Virus record (IMG/VR): IMGVR_UViG_3300027566_000007
Coordinates: 9,341-73,340 of that record
Source of the DNA: a virus
Lineage: Duplodnaviria; Caudoviricetes
DNA: 64,000 nucleotides
Direction: 5' to 3' (one strand)
The stretch's first letter is position 1. Every line of letters begins with the position of its first letter. The notes under the pieces were generated by a model that saw only the letters and a program-made list of their open reading frames with translations, was not told the origin of the DNA and ran no database searches. Positions 14,371-61,937 of the stretch are shown in pieces. The translations under genes were made by a program, and so were the position numbers.

Positions 14371-15573
14371 TCATTTCGGTATTAAATCACCCACGTCTTT
14401 CATTTTTTCAGGATTTGCTTTTATCCACTCAACGAAGAGCCGTTCTGCCGTGACTTTTGCTGATTCGTATTCTTGCTGTGAAGTCATTGTAAGAGGCAGG
14501 CCACATCTTAAACAATAGTTTGCACCCGGAGCGTTCATTTCGCTGCATCTGGGGCATTTTCCCGGCTTCATAGGGTCAATTATAGCCTCACTGTCTTCTA
14601 TGCCATACATGGCCTTTACATCCTTGTCCACATCCCGGCCGGAGAGATGGCAGTATATCGCGGGCATGTCGGAGCCTGCAGTCCATCCGAGATAAACTTT
14701 CATTTGTTGCTCAGTCATGTACTCGCTAAGGTGAGTTGCGCGCGCGTGTCTGAAACCGTGAAGCCAAACACGTTTTTTAATTCCCGTTCGTTCAACGATT
14801 TTTATAAGGGCGCACCTTAAACTAATGTCTGAAATCTGAGTATGCCTGTAGTCCCCTGTCGGCCAGAGCGGGGCGTCTGGCTCATCTTTGAGAGGGTGGA
14901 CATCAAGCCATTGTCTAACATAGGAAGCGAAATTAAAAATAAGAACTCTCCTTGCGCCTGTCTTACCGGCAGGGAAGGTTACAGACGCGCCGCCTGATGG
15001 GAGGAATTCAACGTTCTTGATTTTCATACTTAGGATTTCCCCCACTCTGCAGCCGGACTCATATAGAAGACCAAAAAGGGCTTTATCTCGGAGACAGGCG
15101 GCATGGTCTATGATCTCAAGAACCTCTTCTTTTGTCAGGATGTCTTCAGGAAGCTTAGTTCCTTTCAGGTTTCTGCAGCGTATCACCGCCGCTTCTTTTT
15201 CTTTTCCGATATACTTCAAGAATACCTTAAAGTGCGTTCTCATATTGTTTTTTGTGAATTGTGAAAGAGGCTGTCCCTTGTTAAGTCCCCTCTCACATTC
15301 TTTGACTTCCAGGGTGTCTAAGAAGTCTTCTACGTCTTCAATTGTCGTTTTTGAAAATTCAAAATTAGTACTTATCAGAATCTTGGACAATGAAGTTAAC
15401 AGGGTGTGACATGTTTTCTTACTCTTGCCGTCCCTTATTTGCGAGTTAATAAATTTTATAACAAGCTTTTTATTTTCTTCCGAGGCATTAAGTTTTAATG
15501 TTTCAGCCTTCTTTTTTTCGAGCTTTTTCTCAATCGAGATTTTAGTCTTGGGGTTATTTGGGTTCCTTGGCAT
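14371..15573 (-). CDS. int: Tyrosine recombinase/integrase with C-terminal zinc ribbon
   Basis: LYESGCRVGE (R), KTG (K), HGFRHAR (HxxR), LGW and IY (Y) catalytic set; CPRC...YCLRCG tail. Confidence 0.95.
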   Translation of the reverse strand: MPRNPNNPKTKISIEKKLEKKKAETLKLNASEENKKLVIKFINSQIRDGKSKKTCHTLLTSLSKILISTNFEFSKTTIEDVEDFLDTLEVKECERGLNKGQPLSQFTKNNMRTHFKVFLKYIGKEKEAAVIRCRNLKGTKLPEDILTKEEVLEIIDHAACLRDKALFGLLYESGCRVGEILSMKIKNVEFLPSGGASVTFPAGKTGARRVLIFNFASYVRQWLDVHPLKDEPDAPLWPTGDYRHTQISDISLRCALIKIVERTGIKKRVWLHGFRHARATHLSEYMTEQQMKVYLGWTAGSDMPAIYCHLSGRDVDKDVKAMYGIEDSEAIIDPMKPGKCPRCSEMNAPGANYCLRCGLPLTMTSQQEYESAKVTAERLFVEWIKANPEKMKDVGDLIPK

Positions 15574-15832
15574 ATCAAAAGGTAGGTGTTATTGTTATTA
15601 AAAACATTGTATAATTGCAGCCATTATATAACAATTATAATAACAATTACACTTATTAAGTGTCAAACGTCAAAATATTTTAGTATATATAATTTTCTAG
15701 AAAAAAGAGTTGCAGATAATCGAAAATTAATAAGAACATTTATATATTAATAAGTTTGTCTTTGATCGCTCGTAGAGGAGGCAAATCTTACCCAAAAGAT
15801 GTTATCCCGCCTTCTCTTCGGGCAACGTATTT

Positions 15833-16260: not shown

Positions 16261-16701
16261 TCAGAGTTCGGAGTCCTCGTTATCTATTATTCCATATACA
16301 ATAGAAACGTTTTCTTTTTGAGGTATATCTTTTATTTCTGTTGGGTTGGCTTCTAAGTCTTTCGCCTGGTTGAGGCATTTGATGGCCTCCTTAAATTCAC
16401 CTAGTTCTATACACGCTTTCGCTTTCTTTTTAAGAGCGGATATTCTAAATTTTAAGTCGGTGTGTAGCGTATCAGTGAGGGTTTTTAAACATATTTCATC
16501 AGATAAAAATATAGTTAAAAAGCGGTCTATTGACTCATCAATTAACCCAGTGTCTTCTTTTACAAGATGCTCAGCTACCGCTATTGAAATTAAATCACTA
16601 GGGCTTGAGTATTTTTCATTTTCTGTTTCTTTATCGATTTTTTCCACTAAAAACGGACTCATCGACACGCTAATTGTAATTTTTCTTCGCTTTCGCTCCA
16701 T
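16261..16701 (-). CDS. RHH (CopG/Arc-like) regulator with TPR-like C-terminal helices; repressor candidate
   Basis: KITISVSMSPFLVEKID...YSSPSDLISIAV; ACIELGEFKEAIKCLNQAKDL. Confidence 0.7.
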   Translation of the reverse strand: MERKRRKITISVSMSPFLVEKIDKETENEKYSSPSDLISIAVAEHLVKEDTGLIDESIDRFLTIFLSDEICLKTLTDTLHTDLKFRISALKKKAKACIELGEFKEAIKCLNQAKDLEANPTEIKDIPQKENVSIVYGIIDNEDSEL

Positions 16702-16800
16702 ACAATATAGTATTGTATAGTAAATTATTTATACTCCAACGTTGTATTGTTATTATTGACATGCCAATATTGGTATAGTAAGATTGACATGTTAATGGAG
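16701..16800. promoter_or_regulatory. Divergent switch region with operator-like palindromes
   Basis: TACAATA-TAG-TATTGTA (16701-16717); ATTGACATGCCAAT (16755-16768); ATTGACATGTTAAT (16783-16796). Confidence 0.65.
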
Positions 16801-16807
16801 TGTAAAG

Positions 16808-16960
16808 ATGGAAAAAGTGGAACTAGGAAAAGAAAGTCGCATCTGGAGAAATCTTTCGATGCCAATATCCTTAGAGGTTTGTGAAAAGTTAGGCGTAAAA
16901 CCGGGGGATAATGTACAATTTTATGCATGTGGTGACTCTGTAATTGTCGAAAAGGCATAG
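16808..16960 (+). CDS. AbrB/MazE/SpoVT-family DNA-binding protein (50 aa, not in ORF track)
   Basis: MEKVELGKESRIWRNLSMPISLEVCEKLGVKPGDNVQFYACGDSVIVEKA; GGAG RBS. Confidence 0.75.
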   Translation: MEKVELGKESRIWRNLSMPISLEVCEKLGVKPGDNVQFYACGDSVIVEKA

Positions 16961-16986
16961 AGTGACTGAAAAGGATTGTATGTAAC

Positions 16987-17184
16987 ATGATAAAAACTCA
17001 AAGAAAAGTAACAATAAGCACATCGGTTTCGAGATTTGCAGATAACTGTATAGAACAAATGGTTGAAAGTGAACAATTTTCAAACCGTTCGAATGCTGTA
17101 GAGTCGTCTGCGTTGTTGATGTATTTTGTACTCAATAATGAACAGATTATGAATAAGGCAAAAGAAATTGGAATAGTTCAATGA
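16987..17184 (+). CDS. RHH regulator, paralog of 16261..16701 (Cro-like candidate)
   Basis: RKVTISTSVSRFADNCIEQMVESEQFSNRSNAVE. Confidence 0.7.
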   Translation: MIKTQRKVTISTSVSRFADNCIEQMVESEQFSNRSNAVESSALLMYFVLNNEQIMNKAKEIGIVQ

Positions 17185-17193
17185 GGTGAGACT

Positions 17194-17346
17194 ATGAGAA
17201 TATTATTCACAGCTCCTAATAGTAAGACAGCTTTTGAAAGTCTTAGAGCAACCGGCATTAAAGGTAGAATACTCCTTCACAGAATGCCTCATTGTACCTG
17301 GACTTTTGAAGCTCTTGTAGGCCCTGTTGGGTGTGGTTCCGAATGA
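17194..17346 (+). CDS. Small hypothetical protein (50 aa)
   Basis: GAGGTGAG RBS; MRILFTAPNSK...; not in ORF track. Confidence 0.5.
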   Translation: MRILFTAPNSKTAFESLRATGIKGRILLHRMPHCTWTFEALVGPVGCGSE

Positions 17347-17459
17347 GCGAATCTGAACTGATCCAACAGGCAAAAACGTACTCCGAAGAAACGATAGAAC
17401 AGCTAACAAAAAACGAACCTTTGTACGCTGCGATCCTAACGATTGCTAGACGAGAGTGA
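17343..17459 (+). CDS. Small hypothetical protein (38 aa)
   Basis: ATGA overlap with the previous ORF; MSESELIQQAKTY... Confidence 0.45.
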   Translation: MSESELIQQAKTYSEETIEQLTKNEPLYAAILTIARRE

Positions 17460-17466
17460 GCATTGT

Positions 17467-17502
17467 GCGGCCTGAATACACGGTTCAACTCCTGGGGGCC
17501 GC
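17467..17502 (+). ncRNA. tRNA-like element 1 (minihelix: acceptor stem plus T-loop)
   Basis: GCGGCCT/GGGCCGC stem enclosing GG-TTCAACT-CC; imperfect T-stem. Confidence 0.5.
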
Positions 17503-17582
17503 TACTGTATCAAGACAAAGTAAACCTCCAAAAAATACCCAGGCTTCTGCTTGCCTGGGGTTCCTCCTAATATGAAAATTCA

Positions 17583-17675
17583 ACGTGTGGTCTAAAGCCT
17601 GTTGCAGACCCCTGTGAAGCCAGGTATGATAATAACTACTCAGGCAGGTTCGATTCAATTCCTTCGATGATACGT
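17583..17675 (+). ncRNA. Degenerate tRNA-like element 1b
   Basis: ACGTGT/ATACGT ends, D-loop-like TGGTCTAA, inner GCCTG/CAGGC stem, duplicated T-loop AGG-TTCGATTCAATT-CCT. Confidence 0.35.
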
Positions 17676-17730
17676 AGATCGAGAAAAGAACTCAGCAGTT
17701 GAGGAACTGCTATAAAAAACCTCACCATAT

Positions 17731-17844
17731 GCCGTGCATGGGAGGGCAATAATAAACACCTGCTGTATCCACAAAAAGACCCAAATTCTACCCTTCAACC
17801 TATGACCTACTCAATTGCCCCCAGGTTCAATTCCTGGGCACGGC
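17731..17844 (+). ncRNA. tRNA-like element 2 (acceptor plus T-arm; long insert replaces anticodon arm)
   Basis: GCCGTGC/GCACGGC 7 bp, CCAGG-TTCAATT-CCTGG, GGGCAAT/ATTGCCC stem closing a C/A-rich loop of about 63 nt. Confidence 0.8.
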
Positions 17845-17999
17845 CTGCCCTGTTTTACAGGGGTATAGTTAGAATGTGTTTATCTCAAGCATAGTGTACG
17901 ACGATGGCTCACGGATTGAGTTAGAATGTCCCTACAGACAAGATAAAGCCCTGGTAAATCCAGGGCTAAAATAAAAAACGGGTTGGAAATAATCATCGT

Positions 18000-18122
18000 G
18001 CCGTACCTCAAAGATGAGGGCAGTCAATTATACCATAGTAACACCCGACAAAGTAACACCTTGAACCTCAGATAACACCCCCTAAAGTTCAAGACTGCTC
18101 AAGGTTCGAATCTTGATACGGC
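18000..18122 (+). ncRNA. tRNA-like element 3 (acceptor, D-like hairpin, long insert, T-arm)
   Basis: GCCGTA/TACGGC, CTCA-AAGA-TGAG, GGCAGTC/GACTGCT stem, inner TTGAAC/GTTCAA hairpin, TCAAG-GTTCGAAT-CTTGA. Confidence 0.75.
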
Positions 18123-18275
18123 CTTTGTTTCAAGTTCACGCTTGAGACAAAATCAATAATGGATTTGAAGAAACTGTAAGGATGTATCGAATTGTGCCCG
18201 GTGTTGGGATTACACAACTTAAAATGTCTTAATATGTCTTAGTAATAGAGGTCCCTGGGATAGCCGGGGACAAAT

Positions 18276-18324
18276 GCCATAATCTGTTTGGAGATTCTGG
18301 GAGGGTTCGATTCCTTCTTATGGC
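18276..18324 (+). ncRNA. tRNA-like element 4 (anticodon-less, 49 nt)
   Basis: GCCATAA/TTATGGC 7 bp, TCT-GTTTGG-AGA D-like arm, GAGGG-TTCGATT-CCTTC. Confidence 0.8.
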
Positions 18325-18459
18325 TTTCGGGAATTTTCCCCGTAAAAATATATAAATAGCTTCTAGTGGAGGTATCTAAAAAAGCGTAACGTGAGAAAAC
18401 TGATATCAAAAATATAAGCCAAAAACTTGTACGAACCAGCCCGGTAATCCGGGCACAAG

Positions 18460-18541
18460 TCTCCTTATAGGCTTAACGGTAAACCGGCCACTGGTCCGAG
18501 ATGGCTAGAGGTAATACGAGGTTCAATTCCTTGTAGGGAGA
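18460..18541 (+). ncRNA. tRNA-like element 5 (near-complete cloverleaf, aberrant anticodon loop)
   Basis: TCTCCTT/AGGGAGA, D-loop TTAACGGTAAA, GGCCA/TGGCT stem with an 11-nt loop, CGAGG-TTCAATT-CCTTG. Confidence 0.7.
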
Positions 18542-18663
18542 TCCGGGACAACCCGGACAAAATAATACAAACAAAAAAATTTAGGCAACTCCTAAACCCT
18601 TGAATCTCTGAAATTGGTCAAACGAAAGACGCTGATGCTTTATAAGTTTCAGCGTCTCAACGT

Positions 18664-18708
18664 GTCCATGTTTGACAGAAAAACACAGGTTCAAACCCTG
18701 GCATGGAC
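18664..18708 (+). ncRNA. tRNA-like element 6 (anticodon-less, 45 nt)
   Basis: GTCCATG/CATGGAC 7 bp, CAGG-TTCAAAC-CCTG. Confidence 0.75.
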
Positions 18709-18767
18709 CATTATTTACTTTTTATGAAAAAGAGGCGTGTGTTATTGAATTTTAGAAGGTGTAAGAA

Positions 18768-18935
18768 ATGAGCGATTTTGAAGACGGTGCTGAGATGGTG
18801 CGGGATTTGAGTCTCGCAGATGAAACGAGTCTCCGAGAAGAACCTGAGAAAAAAGGGAAAAGTTGTACTTTTTGCGGGCAGCTGTTTAAATCAAGTGACG
18901 ATAATCCGTTTTGTCCAGATTGCCGGGAGATTTGA
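18768..18935 (+). CDS. Small zinc-finger protein (55 aa, not in ORF track)
   Basis: CTFCG...PFCPDC; GAAGGTG RBS. Confidence 0.6.
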   Translation: MSDFEDGAEMVRDLSLADETSLREEPEKKGKSCTFCGQLFKSSDDNPFCPDCREI

Positions 18936-59750: not shown

Positions 59751-61937
59751 ATGCCACGCGAAGACTTTGTTCTGCCTAGAGGCGGGACTGCGGCGTTATG
59801 GGCATCGAGAAATACGGTGTTAGCTCTCAGGGAACTAGGGGTAGAAACTGATACTAAAAAGATGAAGATCGGCGACGGTGTAACACATTGGAATGATCTT
59901 CCGTATATAACTGGGCCTGTTGACGGTGACAATGTTGATCTCCAAGTGAAAAGAGACACAGATGTGAATTTATCAGCTTTGACAACTCCGTTTTTAAGCG
60001 GGCAGCTTGTTTATGGTCAAACTACTGGAAAAACTGTAATAGGTGATGGGGAGTCTTTATTTGATGAGTTGCCAGATTTGAGGAAGCAGTTTCAGAATGT
60101 TGTAACTGTGAGTAAGAGTGGGAAGAAGGGGAGTGCTGATTTTATATGTTCTGATTCACAGTGGAATTCTGATGATGAGTGTATACAGGCGGCGATTGAT
60201 TATTGCGCTACACATAGTATCAAAGAATTGTGGATTAATGAGGGGTATTATATAATAAATGCTCAACTTACAGGATCATCTGATATTAATATTAAAGGTG
60301 TTGGGGACGTAACTCTATTTTCAAATTCACTAGCTTCAGATTTAATTTCATTATCGGGTTCTGTTTTAAAAACAGTAACCGGATCAGATGTTGCGGTTGG
60401 CGCAACATCAATTATGGTATCAGACGTTACGGGGATTAATCCAGGGGATCTTATCTTAATTTATGATGATACCATATGGGACGATGGATCAACTTACGCT
60501 AGTCTGAAAACCGGGGAAATACACGAGGTATTAAGTGTTTCTGGCAGCACTGTTAATTTTATAGACGGGTTAATTAATGCGTATACCGCTGTAAACAATC
60601 TCTCCGTACAAGTCATTAATCCAATTCGTGTTAATATCGAAAATATCAAATTTTTGGGATCTTCTGAGACCACAGCGAATGGGCTTGTTTCGCTCACGTA
60701 TGCTAAATATAGTATAATTTCTGAGTGTATATTGGATAAAGGCGGCCTGCGTGGATTGCATATAAACAATTCATATTTTGTATCCGCTGAAAAACTCAAA
60801 ATTTCAAACTGTATCAGAGACGGGTATGGATATGGGATATCGATATCTAATGCATGTGCACACGTCGGTATACAAAAATCGAAATTAGATATGTGTAGAC
60901 ATTGTATATCGCTAGGTGGGGATGAATCTATCGGGCAAGCGCGAGACATACACATTTATAATAATGAAGTGTATGGAAATGGGTTATATCACACAATTGA
61001 CGCTCACGCATGTGTAGAATCGATATATGTTAATAATAATATAATTCATGCTAATAAAAAATCCGCATTCACAAGCGGTGCAAAAATTTCTGAATTTAAA
61101 AATAATAGGGTGTATAATGGTATAGCTGTATCCGTGAGAGACACAACTAAAAATATGGTATTTTTAGTTGATAGCAATTCTCTGTTTTCATGTTGGTATG
61201 GTTTTAGCGATACCACAGAAGGTGCAACTATAAAATATTTGTCATTCTCAAATAATGATATCATAGATGGGTTGTACTACATGTTATACGTTACCCATGC
61301 AAGTATTATAAACATTGTAAATAATAATATAAATAAATCAACAGAACTGTATGGTATACGTGTTCATTCGGCGACGGGTGGAAAAATACAAAACAATATA
61401 ATTCAAAATACGTTTAGAGACGGGATATATTTAATCGATTGCTCAAACATCACCCTATCTAACAATGTTATTGAAAATAGCAATGGGTCAAACACGGCAG
61501 GACAATTATATGAATCAGGTATTGCACTAACACGCTGTACAAATTTAAAAATATTTAATAATGATGTAAGCGATGCATTTGGTAAACAGAGATACGCAAT
61601 CGCTGAATATGATACTTGTAATAACAATAAAATTAAAAATAATACGGTTAGCGGGGCAATAATAAAACAGATTCTCAAAGTCGGAGCAGCAACAGTTATT
61701 TTTAATAACGACGGGTATATCACAGAAAACACCGGCACAGCAACAATTACCACCTCCTCAACCTCTGTAGTAGTCAGTCACGGTTTAGTAGCAGCCCCCA
61801 CAAAATATTTTGCATTCCCATCAGCAAATTTGGGTAACTGTTGGATTGATACTGTAACAGCTACACAAATGACTATTCACTGTTCAACTGCACCAGGAGC
61901 AGATACAGTAGTAAGTTGGTCTGCGCAGGTGGTTTAA
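59751..61937 (+). CDS. Spike/fibre: two Mtd-N-like repeats plus pectate-lyase-like beta-helix
   Basis: W...N.VL...ELGVETDTKKMKIGDGVTHWNDLPY and a second IGDG...F.ELP; DDECIQAAID; beta-helix rungs; C-terminal V.HGL..AP...VSW.A. Confidence 0.75.
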   Translation: MPREDFVLPRGGTAALWASRNTVLALRELGVETDTKKMKIGDGVTHWNDLPYITGPVDGDNVDLQVKRDTDVNLSALTTPFLSGQLVYGQTTGKTVIGDGESLFDELPDLRKQFQNVVTVSKSGKKGSADFICSDSQWNSDDECIQAAIDYCATHSIKELWINEGYYIINAQLTGSSDINIKGVGDVTLFSNSLASDLISLSGSVLKTVTGSDVAVGATSIMVSDVTGINPGDLILIYDDTIWDDGSTYASLKTGEIHEVLSVSGSTVNFIDGLINAYTAVNNLSVQVINPIRVNIENIKFLGSSETTANGLVSLTYAKYSIISECILDKGGLRGLHINNSYFVSAEKLKISNCIRDGYGYGISISNACAHVGIQKSKLDMCRHCISLGGDESIGQARDIHIYNNEVYGNGLYHTIDAHACVESIYVNNNIIHANKKSAFTSGAKISEFKNNRVYNGIAVSVRDTTKNMVFLVDSNSLFSCWYGFSDTTEGATIKYLSFSNNDIIDGLYYMLYVTHASIINIVNNNINKSTELYGIRVHSATGGKIQNNIIQNTFRDGIYLIDCSNITLSNNVIENSNGSNTAGQLYESGIALTRCTNLKIFNNDVSDAFGKQRYAIAEYDTCNNNKIKNNTVSGAIIKQILKVGAATVIFNNDGYITENTGTATITTSSTSVVVSHGLVAAPTKYFAFPSANLGNCWIDTVTATQMTIHCSTAPGADTVVSWSAQVV

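What the first reader, a model, noticed from the sequence alone, without database searches (positions are those of the whole stretch)
17731..18122. Two elements with tmRNA/Y-RNA-like topology carrying C/A-rich cargo loops
Elements 2 and 3 share GCCGT...ACGGC-C ends. In both, a 7-bp helix (GGGCAAT/ATTGCCC; GGCAGTC/GACTGCT) replaces the anticodon arm and closes a largely G-poor insert of about 65 nt, as in the tRNA-like domain of tmRNA or bacterial Y RNAs. TAACACC occurs three times in element 3 (18039, 18054, 18073) and AACACC once in element 2. The same motif lies in the integrase mRNA leader (reverse complement of 15585-15591), and CACC is complementary to the GGTG of archaeal RBSs. They may be a protein sponge or anti-RBS guides.
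Basis: partly seen in the sequence, partly recalled or inferred. Interest (0 to 1): 0.7.

Follow-up and report, generated by a model that had tools for sequence, protein, structure and literature searches.

The report
tRNA-like viral RNAs carrying G-poor loops
Two neighbouring RNA genes in a tailed virus of Methanosarcina-type archaea keep the top half of a tRNA but replace the anticodon arm with a stem that holds out a long, unfolded, G-poor loop. Related viruses and proviruses keep this design with different loop sequences, so it is a real, undescribed small-RNA family whose job is still unknown.

Summary
Element 2 (17731-17845) and element 3 (18000-18123) each have a GCCG…CGGC acceptor stem, a T arm, a 6-7 bp stem in place of the anticodon arm, and a 63/67-nt insert with 6-9% G that is predicted to be unfolded. 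They are not chance, introns, tmRNA or Y RNA. ARAGORN (introns allowed) and Rfam call nothing here, although ARAGORN does find true tRNAs in sister arrays.

I found eleven elements of this design: the window's two, six on related metagenomic virus contigs and three in two Methanosarcinaceae proviruses. Some are near-duplicates, and two or three lack a clear long stem. Acceptor base pairs 1-4 are invariant in the seven lineages tabulated, and the other stem pairs show compensatory changes. The inserts cannot be aligned with one another, range from about 15 to 72 nt, gain and lose bases as fast as the spacers, yet stay G-poor (35/371, P=1e-7).

The TAACACC triplet is real within element 3 (p≈0.002) but is not a family motif. 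The anti-RBS idea has support from base composition only.

Best reading: these are tRNA-scaffolded small RNAs inside a tRNA/tRNA-like array, probably cut out by RNase P and tRNase Z, that display single-stranded RNA. Expression and function are untested. The scan had noted this same stretch before, and an anticodon-less tRNA look-alike in a giant virus on other DNA.

The parts
17731..17845 (+). Element 2, a GCCG-type tRNA-like RNA: acceptor 17731-37/17838-44, linker ATGGGA 17738-43, long stem 17744-50/17814-20, T arm 17821-37, discriminator C 17845
   Evidence: Ortholog L007 758-873 is 96% identical in the scaffold, and its one stem change keeps pairing as G-U.
17751..17813 (+). Element 2 insert: 63 nt, 6% G, 33% C, 38% A, predicted unfolded (0 kcal/mol). 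AACACC at 17755.
18000..18123 (+). Element 3, a GCCG-type tRNA-like RNA: acceptor 18000-05/18117-22, D-position hairpin within 18006-19, long stem 18020-25/18093-98, T arm 18099-18116 (8-nt loop), discriminator C 18123
   Evidence: minimum-energy fold is the proposed fold, z -3.7. The L007 copy 1081-1187 has a mutated T loop and a 16-nt deletion in the insert.
18026..18092 (+). Element 3 insert: 67 nt, 9% G. TAACACC at 18039, 18054 and 18073. One weak inner hairpin TTGAAC/GTTCAA.
17848..17862 (+). Hairpin CCCTG-TTTTA-CAGGG, 3 nt after the element 2 discriminator. The equivalent hairpin follows the orthologs in L007, L002, L045 and L010.
18124..18151 (+). 11-bp hairpin that starts directly after the element 3 discriminator
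   Evidence: read from the sequence
17467..18710 (+). The surrounding array of tRNA-like units, all on the + strand: 17467-17503, about 17583-17677, element 2, element 3, 18276-18325, 18461-18541, 18664-18709
   Evidence: The same array occurs in L007. Relatives carry or lack whole units.
18719..18723 (+). First run of five or more T on the + strand since 16680, 10 nt after the last unit. Candidate archaeal terminator of the array transcript.
   Evidence: suggestive only: zero runs against 1.3 expected from shuffles

Best explanation
Elements 2 and 3 are genes for tRNA-scaffolded small RNAs. They belong to a family found in tailed viruses and proviruses of Methanosarcinaceae, and they sit inside an array that mixes true tRNAs with tRNA-like units.

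Shown:
- The RNA keeps the acceptor/T-arm half of a tRNA, with GCCG/CGGC fixed at the end.
- The anticodon arm is replaced by a stem that closes a loop of about 15-72 nt.
- The loop is kept G-poor and unfolded, but its sequence is free to change.

Inferred:
- The array is transcribed on the + strand.
- Host RNase P and tRNase Z cut at each tRNA-like unit, and a CCA tail is added, giving a stable RNA of about 115-125 nt.
- The tRNA-like handle provides processing and stability.
- The working part is the displayed single-stranded C/A-rich loop. It would bind a single-strand RNA-binding factor (a protein, a nuclease or the ribosome's mRNA channel) or purine-rich RNA such as ribosome-binding sites. 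Binding would depend on composition or short seeds rather than on one conserved motif.
For: - Conserved design in eleven elements: two in the window; L007 (two), L002, L045, L010, L208 and L001 on related contigs; and three in proviruses G139 and G131.
- Compensatory changes at acceptor pairs 5-7, T-stem pairs 1-4 and long-stem pairs 2 and 5.
- 97% of cells are paired, against 39-49% when partners are slid. That alignment was fitted to the structure.
- Between close relatives the scaffolds are 95-100% identical with almost no indels. The inserts are 88-94% identical with 13-17 gap columns.
- Inserts pooled over the seven tabulated lineages hold 35 G in 371 nt, against a background of 19.4% (P=1e-7).
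- The inserts are predicted to be unfolded.
- The units lie in arrays with real tRNAs: tRNA-Cys with an intron in L010 and tRNA-Gln in G131.
- All units are on one strand. A hairpin follows most of the GCCG-type units examined (seen after element 2 and its orthologs, element 3 and G131 unit 2; not checked for the rest). No T5 run occurs until just after the last unit.
- Known precedents for processing of tRNA-like units: MHV68 TMERs (PMC4838037), and T4 RNAs C and D (PMC9697503 plus own knowledge).
Against: - No evidence of expression or processing. The runs that hold this DNA are DNA or probably DNA.
- Insert sequence evolves as fast as the spacers, and no motif is shared across lineages. A sequence-specific guide or sponge is therefore not indicated.
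- Pairing with viral start regions is no better than for shuffled inserts.
- No long antisense target was found in the virus or in 151 host-family genomes.
- Element 3 has an 11-bp stack and an 8-nt T loop, and its L007 copy has a broken T loop.
- L001, G139 and G131 unit 1 lack a clean long stem.
- The D-like linker has no GG in L010 or L208.
Confidence: 0.45

Rival explanations
1. Punctuation only. The tRNA-like fold is merely a cleavage, insulation or stability signal for an early polycistronic transcript. The products that matter are the spacers, hairpins or downstream mRNAs, and the loops are tolerated filler kept unfolded so they do not disturb the fold.
For: - The minimal units of 37-50 nt in the same array carry no cargo at all.
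- Units come and go as modules among relatives.
- Inserts evolve like the spacers, and their length varies from about 15 to 72 nt.
Against: - Filler should be lost by deletion, yet most lineages keep a loop of 30 nt or more.
- Composition is held at about 9% G across inserts that cannot be aligned (P=1e-7).
- The long stem is maintained by compensatory changes.
Confidence: 0.25
2. Decoy for a host factor that recognises the tRNA acceptor end, such as a tRNA-targeting defence nuclease or toxin, a synthetase or the CCA-adding enzyme. Alternatively, a ribosome-directed tRNA-plus-mRNA mimic analogous to tmRNA but non-coding.
For: - GCCG/CGGC at acceptor pairs 1-4 is invariant in all seven lineages tabulated, while neighbouring pairs covary. 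This suggests the end is read by a protein.
- The best cellular match of model R2 is a host tRNA-Cys.
- The topology resembles the tRNA-like domain of tmRNA.
Against: - No G3:U70, and no G at -1 to go with C73.
- The discriminator varies (C, T or A).
- No conserved reading frame.
- No partner gene was identified nearby.
Confidence: 0.15
3. Decaying viral tRNA genes (pseudogenes) with expanded anticodon arms and no present function.
For: - The window unit 18276-18325 shares its acceptor stem with an intact-looking tRNA-Cys in L010 but has lost two arms.
- The L007 copy of element 3 has a damaged T loop.
- The virus has no callable tRNA.
Against: - Compensatory changes occur in three helices across the seven tabulated lineages.
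- Scaffolds are more conserved than the spacers.
- The composition bias is maintained.
- The same design appears in distant proviruses.
Confidence: 0.1
4. Intron-containing pre-tRNAs, or attachment-site relics of integration into tRNA genes.
For: Archaeal tRNAs can carry long introns. The virus encodes a tyrosine integrase at 14371-15573.
Against: - Relaxed calls disagree with one another (Pyl, Arg, Asn).
- Every long-stemmed member has AA where C/U32-U33 should be.
- Both acceptor strands are present, which attachment relics do not need.
- No host tRNA segment matched the array in 151 family genomes.
Confidence: 0.05

Closest known systems
Phage T4 stable RNAs C and D (species 1 and 2) in the T4 tRNA gene cluster
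   Same: Small non-coding RNAs encoded among viral tRNA genes, of unknown function (PMC9697503). From my own knowledge, their ends are tRNA-like and they mature together with the tRNAs.
   Different: Bacterial host, no sequence relation, and no G-poor loop on a long stem is reported. The tRNA-like ends of the T4 RNAs are recalled from memory and were not checked here.
MHV68 TMERs (viral tRNA-like element followed by hairpins)
   Same: An array of viral tRNA-like units, each followed by stem-loops. The tRNA-like part serves processing by tRNase Z and does not decode (PMC4838037).
   Different: A eukaryotic Pol III and Dicer pathway that yields miRNAs. In TMERs the cargo is the downstream hairpin. 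Here the cargo sits inside the tRNA-like fold, and archaea have no Dicer.
tRNA-like domain of tmRNA
   Same: Acceptor stem, T arm, D-like loop without a stem, and the anticodon arm replaced by a long helix that closes a large domain.
   Different: No G3:U70, no tag reading frame, no pseudoknots, no ARAGORN or Rfam call, and archaea have no tmRNA or SmpB system.
Engineered tRNA scaffolds and natural tRNA-like 3' modules (mascRNA/MALAT1)
   Same: A foreign RNA is carried on the anticodon stem of a tRNA body, which supplies folding, RNase P/Z processing and stability. This is what it most works like.
   Different: Those are laboratory constructs or eukaryotic lncRNA ends. This is a natural, evolving viral family in archaea.
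Bacterial Y RNAs (YrlA)
   Same: They contain a tRNA-mimicking module.
   Different: In YrlA the 5' and 3' ends form the Ro-binding stem and the tRNA mimic is internal. No Rfam match, and no Ro60 gene was seen among the ORFs scanned.

Membership tests
Archaeal tRNA (with or without intron) | Acceptor stem of about 7 bp stacked on a 5-bp T stem with a GTTCRAnnC-type T loop | tested here: met
   Met fully by element 2. Element 3 has a 6+5 bp stack and an 8-nt loop.
Archaeal tRNA (with or without intron) | 5-bp anticodon stem closing a 7-nt loop with U33 and an anticodon, directly or after intron removal | tested here: not met
   the loop is about 15-72 nt and begins with AA in every long-stemmed member. 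ARAGORN -i at its default threshold calls none, and its relaxed calls disagree. Positive controls were the L010 tRNA-Cys and the G131 tRNA-Gln.
Archaeal tRNA (with or without intron) | Bulge-helix-bulge motif at the intron borders | tested here: inconclusive
   my strict scan found none in any member, but it also found none in the control tRNA-Cys of L010, so the scan is not validated.
tmRNA | tRNA-like domain without an anticodon arm | tested here: met
   (topology only).
tmRNA | G3:U70 alanine identity pair | tested here: not met
   pair 3-70 is C-G in all seven lineages tabulated.
tmRNA | Conserved tag reading frame ending in a stop, and a match to tmRNA models | tested here: not met
   Frame-breaking indels of 1, 4 and 16 nt between close relatives. 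ARAGORN -m finds none. Rfam matches only 11-17-nt T-loop fragments of other units.
Y RNA / YrlA | RNA ends form the Ro60-binding stem; match to Rfam Y RNA models; Ro60 gene nearby | tested here: not met
   The ends form an acceptor stem. No Rfam match at E up to 10. No TROVE domain in the 28 ORFs scanned; the whole genome was not scanned for it.
Viral tRNA-like non-coding RNAs inside tRNA arrays (T4 RNA C/D, TMER type) | Encoded within a viral array of tRNA or tRNA-like genes on one strand | tested here: met
Viral tRNA-like non-coding RNAs inside tRNA arrays (T4 RNA C/D, TMER type) | Cannot decode but keeps the RNase P/tRNase Z recognition half | tested here: met
   (structure only).
Viral tRNA-like non-coding RNAs inside tRNA arrays (T4 RNA C/D, TMER type) | Expressed and processed to a stable small RNA | not testable with these tools
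   only assembled contigs, probably DNA, so no transcript ends can be read.

The most novel reading that the evidence does not exclude
Methanosarcina viruses use a natural tRNA scaffold as a display platform. The conserved GCCG-type handle makes the host tRNA-processing machinery cut out and stabilise the RNA. The fast-evolving unfolded loop is an exchangeable effector that blocks or titrates a host single-strand RNA-binding activity, such as the ribosome's mRNA channel or ribosome-binding sites, an endoribonuclease toxin or a defence sensor. On this reading the loop turnover reflects an arms race rather than neutrality.
Probability: 0.2. Interest if true: 0.85.

Novelty: new variant of a known kind. 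Interest (0 to 1): 0.6.

Why it matters
- Almost nothing is known about non-coding RNAs of archaeal viruses.
- This is a compact RNA family supported by covariation. It has a clear design (tRNA handle plus unfolded loop), is absent from Rfam, and is present in proviruses of cultivable-type Methanosarcinaceae genomes, so it can be tested by genetics.
- If the loops are effectors, this would be a natural counterpart of the engineered tRNA scaffold and a new way for viruses to exploit tRNA processing.
- If they are only punctuation, it would extend tRNA-punctuated transcript processing to archaeal viruses.
- It also warns annotators that these arrays mix true tRNAs with non-decoding look-alikes.

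Tried and rejected
- **Expression:** no RNA holder is listed. The RNA-Seq-labelled runs are probably DNA and are kept only as contigs, so nothing can be said about expression.
- **Known RNA families:** ARAGORN tRNA/tmRNA and Rfam at gathering and E≤10 thresholds gave nothing for elements 2 and 3.
- **Reverse transcriptase or template idea:** no RVT_1 domain in the 73-kb record.
- **Long antisense targets in the virus:** the longest is 12 nt, and counts equal those for shuffles.
- **Anti-RBS pairing:** mean duplex energy with 91 start regions is -8.7 (element 2) and -9.4 (element 3) kcal/mol, against -7.3 and -7.2 for intragenic controls. Shuffled inserts give -8.8 to -8.9, so this is a composition effect only.
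- **Shared motif in the inserts:** none beyond composition.
- **Anti-SD-like 5-mers in the arrays:** 29 against 13 expected, but the complementary GGAGG-type words are as frequent, so these are probably stems.
- **Host attB or host targets:** a BLAST of the array against 151 family genomes gave only short low-complexity hits, plus the G139 provirus.
- **Census:** models R1 and R2 over 151 Methanosarcinaceae genomes found only G131 and noise. R2 cannot separate this family from true tRNAs below about 25 bits. Three further IMG/VR pattern scans found nothing, and the phage DNA search found no match.
- **Bulge-helix-bulge scan:** the control failed too.
- **Alignment:** MAFFT could not align the long stems, so stem covariation was tabulated by hand in a script.

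Full report
**Context.** The window is part of a 73-kb IMG/VR virus record that CheckV rates as complete. It encodes a large terminase, a capsid-like protein, beta-helix fibre proteins (one with a disaggregatase-related domain typical of Methanosarcina biology) and a tyrosine integrase. Relatives of its AAA_24/RecA-like ATPase lie in a Methanosarcina MAG. Homologous RNA arrays lie in two large Methanosarcinaceae chromosomes. It is therefore a temperate tailed virus of Methanosarcina-type archaea. The finding sits in a 1.4-kb stretch without convincing ORFs (about 17350-18767), between two small + strand ORFs and a Zn-ribbon ORF that starts the replication module.

**The observation.** Reading the sequence and parsing it by script confirms every statement.
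- Element 2 (17731-17845): 7-bp acceptor stem GCCGTGC/GCACGGC, discriminator C, canonical T arm, 7-bp stem GGGCAAT/ATTGCCC abutting the T arm, and a 63-nt insert with 4 G.
- Element 3 (18000-18123): acceptor stem GCCGTA/TACGGC, a small hairpin at the D-arm position, stem GCAGTC/GACTGC, a 67-nt insert with 6 G, and a T arm with an 8-nt loop.
- TAACACC lies at 18039, 18054 and 18073, and AACACC at 17755. A 7-mer repeated three times arises in only 42 of 20,000 dinucleotide shuffles of the insert.
- Folding gives the proposed structure as the minimum-energy fold for element 3 (z -3.7) and as the centroid for element 2. The minimum-energy fold of element 2 uses an alternative pairing of GGGAGGG with CCCTTC in the loop. 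The inserts alone are essentially unfolded, at 0 and -2.5 kcal/mol.

**What they are not.**
- ARAGORN finds no tRNA or tmRNA in the window.
- Rfam gives nothing at gathering thresholds, and nothing for these two elements at E up to 10.
- ARAGORN run with introns allowed still calls neither at its default threshold. Only a much relaxed threshold yields mutually inconsistent calls (Pyl, Arg, Asn).
- The same program does call a tRNA-Cys(GCA) with a 25-nt intron in the sister array of L010 and a tRNA-Gln(UUG) in the G131 provirus array, so the negative result means something.
- All long-stemmed members have AA directly after the stem, where a tRNA has C/U32-U33.
- My bulge-helix-bulge scan found nothing, but it failed on the control too and is inconclusive.
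- A tmRNA-like coding role is excluded by frame-breaking indels between close relatives and by C3:G70.
- There is no reverse transcriptase in the record.

**Relatives.** Homologs of the neighbouring ATPase led to metagenomic contigs that carry the same kind of array upstream of that gene.
- A pattern scan added IMG/VR contig L045.
- A BLAST of the array against family genomes revealed provirus G139, and from there G131.
- GCCG-type elements found: window (two), L007 (two; its array is 92% identical to the window's), L002 and L045 (95% identical to each other), L010, L208, L001, G139 (one) and G131 (two). A further variant is visible only as a loose contig end in run X2.
- In about 110 chance matches to the same end pattern, a stem of 7 bp or more beside the T arm occurred 4 times, and no insert had less than 15% G.

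**Conservation pattern** (seven lineages tabulated).
- Acceptor pairs 1-4 are invariant (GCCG/CGGC).
- Pair 5 is T-A, A-T or T-G. Pair 6 is G-C, A-T or C-G. Pair 7 takes four pair types.
- T-stem pairs 1-4 each take two or three pair types.
- The long stem shares a core G-N-C-A-R-T-C. Pair 2 is G-C, T-A, A-T or T-G, and pair 5 is A-T or G-C.
- On an Infernal alignment of four members, 97% of cells pair against 39-49% when partners are slid, and four pairs change on both sides. That alignment was fitted to the structure.
- Between close relatives the scaffolds are 95-100% identical with almost no indels. The inserts are 88-94% identical with 13-17 gap columns, no better than the spacers at 92-94%.
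- Inserts of different lineages cannot be aligned and range from 31 to 72 nt in the tabulated set, or down to about 15 nt in G131 unit 2. They share no k-mer beyond what composition predicts.
- The inserts nevertheless stay G-poor: 35 G in 371 nt against a 19.4% background, P=1e-7.
- Selection therefore acts on the scaffold and on loop composition and openness, not on loop sequence.

- The TAACACC triplet is a real local repeat, but one copy is deleted in L007 and it is not a family feature.
- AACACCT is not enriched in the window (11 against 8 expected), so the copy in the integrase leader is unremarkable. It also has the same sense as the loop motif, not the complementary sense.
- GGTG occurs in 13 of 91 predicted start regions.
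- The inserts pair with start regions more strongly than with intragenic controls, but shuffled inserts do equally well.
- No long antisense target exists in the virus or in 151 host-family genomes.
- Anti-RBS action therefore remains possible only at the level of composition. The sponge idea could not be tested.

**Array-level clues.**
- All units are on the + strand.
- A hairpin begins 0-4 nt after the discriminator of the element 2 orthologs and element 3.
- Relatives differ by presence or absence of whole units (joints).
- No run of five or more T occurs on the + strand between 16680 and 18718. The first lies 10 nt after the last unit, while the stretch analysed (16987-18718) holds 13 A runs. 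This fits one + strand transcript ending there, but it is not significant on its own.
- The best cellular hit of the broader model R2 is a host tRNA-Cys. The unit at 18276-18325 shares its acceptor stem with the tRNA-Cys of L010. The family may therefore descend from viral tRNA genes.

**Mechanism.** I commit to tRNA-scaffolded small RNAs.
- Shown: the conserved fold and the composition constraint on the loop.
- Inferred: excision by RNase P and tRNase Z, CCA addition, and action through the displayed single strand.
- Precedents: MHV68 TMERs (PMC4838037), T4 RNAs C and D of still unknown function (PMC9697503), the tRNA-like domain of tmRNA, and engineered tRNA scaffolds.
- Rivals: processing punctuation with filler loops, a decoy for a factor that reads the acceptor end, neutral tRNA decay, and introns or attachment relics. 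They are weighed in the Rival explanations section.

**Novelty and score.** tRNA-like non-decoding RNAs in viral tRNA arrays are a known kind. This stem-plus-open-loop design in archaeal viruses, with a fixed GCCG handle and fast-changing cargo, is not in Rfam, and I found no paper describing it. I rate it a new variant of a known kind, with interest 0.6. The scan had flagged this same stretch several times, and on other DNA it had flagged an anticodon-less tRNA look-alike in a giant virus.

Noticed in passing
L010:1724-1821; window 18276-18325: L010 carries a plausible tRNA-Cys(GCA) with U73 and a 25-nt intron at a non-canonical site. The window's unit has the same acceptor stem (GCCATAA/TTATGGC-T) but has lost the D and anticodon arms, leaving a 49-nt minihelix.
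   Followed up: partly
L221 (provirus in genome G131), minus strand 1760-1300: A chromosome of a 5.8-Mb Methanosarcinaceae genome holds two GCCG-type units (91 and 66 nt) followed by a bona fide tRNA-Gln(UUG). The genome could serve as a laboratory system if the strain is cultivable.
   Followed up: partly
L219 (provirus in genome G139), minus strand 6347-6260; window 18752-18770: In G139 a GCCG-type unit lies directly in front of the ribosome-binding site AGAAGGTGTAAGAAATG. The same site and start follow the window's array, and a 116-aa ORF separates the G139 unit from the next one.
   Followed up: no
window 18768-18935; L002 from about 6466; L208 1008-1142: A small Zn-ribbon ORF of 44-55 aa (CxxC…CPDC) follows the array directly in several relatives. 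It has only weak Pfam hits (Prok-RING_1). It is a candidate partner of the RNAs, but this was not tested.
   Followed up: no
window 16681-18723: There are no T5+ runs on the + strand over about 2 kb, against 13 A5+ runs in 16987-18718. The first T5 lies 10 nt after the last unit, and L010 shows the same pattern (a T7 after its last unit).
   Followed up: partly
window 17467-17503; L002 5849-5880; L045 8891-8922: The minimal 32-37-nt acceptor/T-arm minihelices show compensatory changes between L002 and L045 (C-G to T-A in the acceptor stem, A-T to T-A in the T stem). Even the cargo-less units therefore appear to be under structural selection.
   Followed up: partly
window 17572-17727, 18027-18161, 18278-18409, 18440-18544: Contigs of a wastewater run join across these intervals, so relatives lack or replace whole units. 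The array evolves by cassette gain and loss.
   Followed up: no
window 59751-61937: A 728-aa beta-helix protein has an Mtd_N (major tropism determinant) N-terminal domain, yet no reverse transcriptase is detectable in the record.
   Followed up: no
window 17731-17813: Element 2 can alternatively pair its linker GGGAGGG with CCCTTC in the loop, and this is its minimum-energy fold. Both differences between the window and L007 in this region (G12A and A67T) fall in that helix and improve it in L007. This may be a switch or a coincidence.
   Followed up: no
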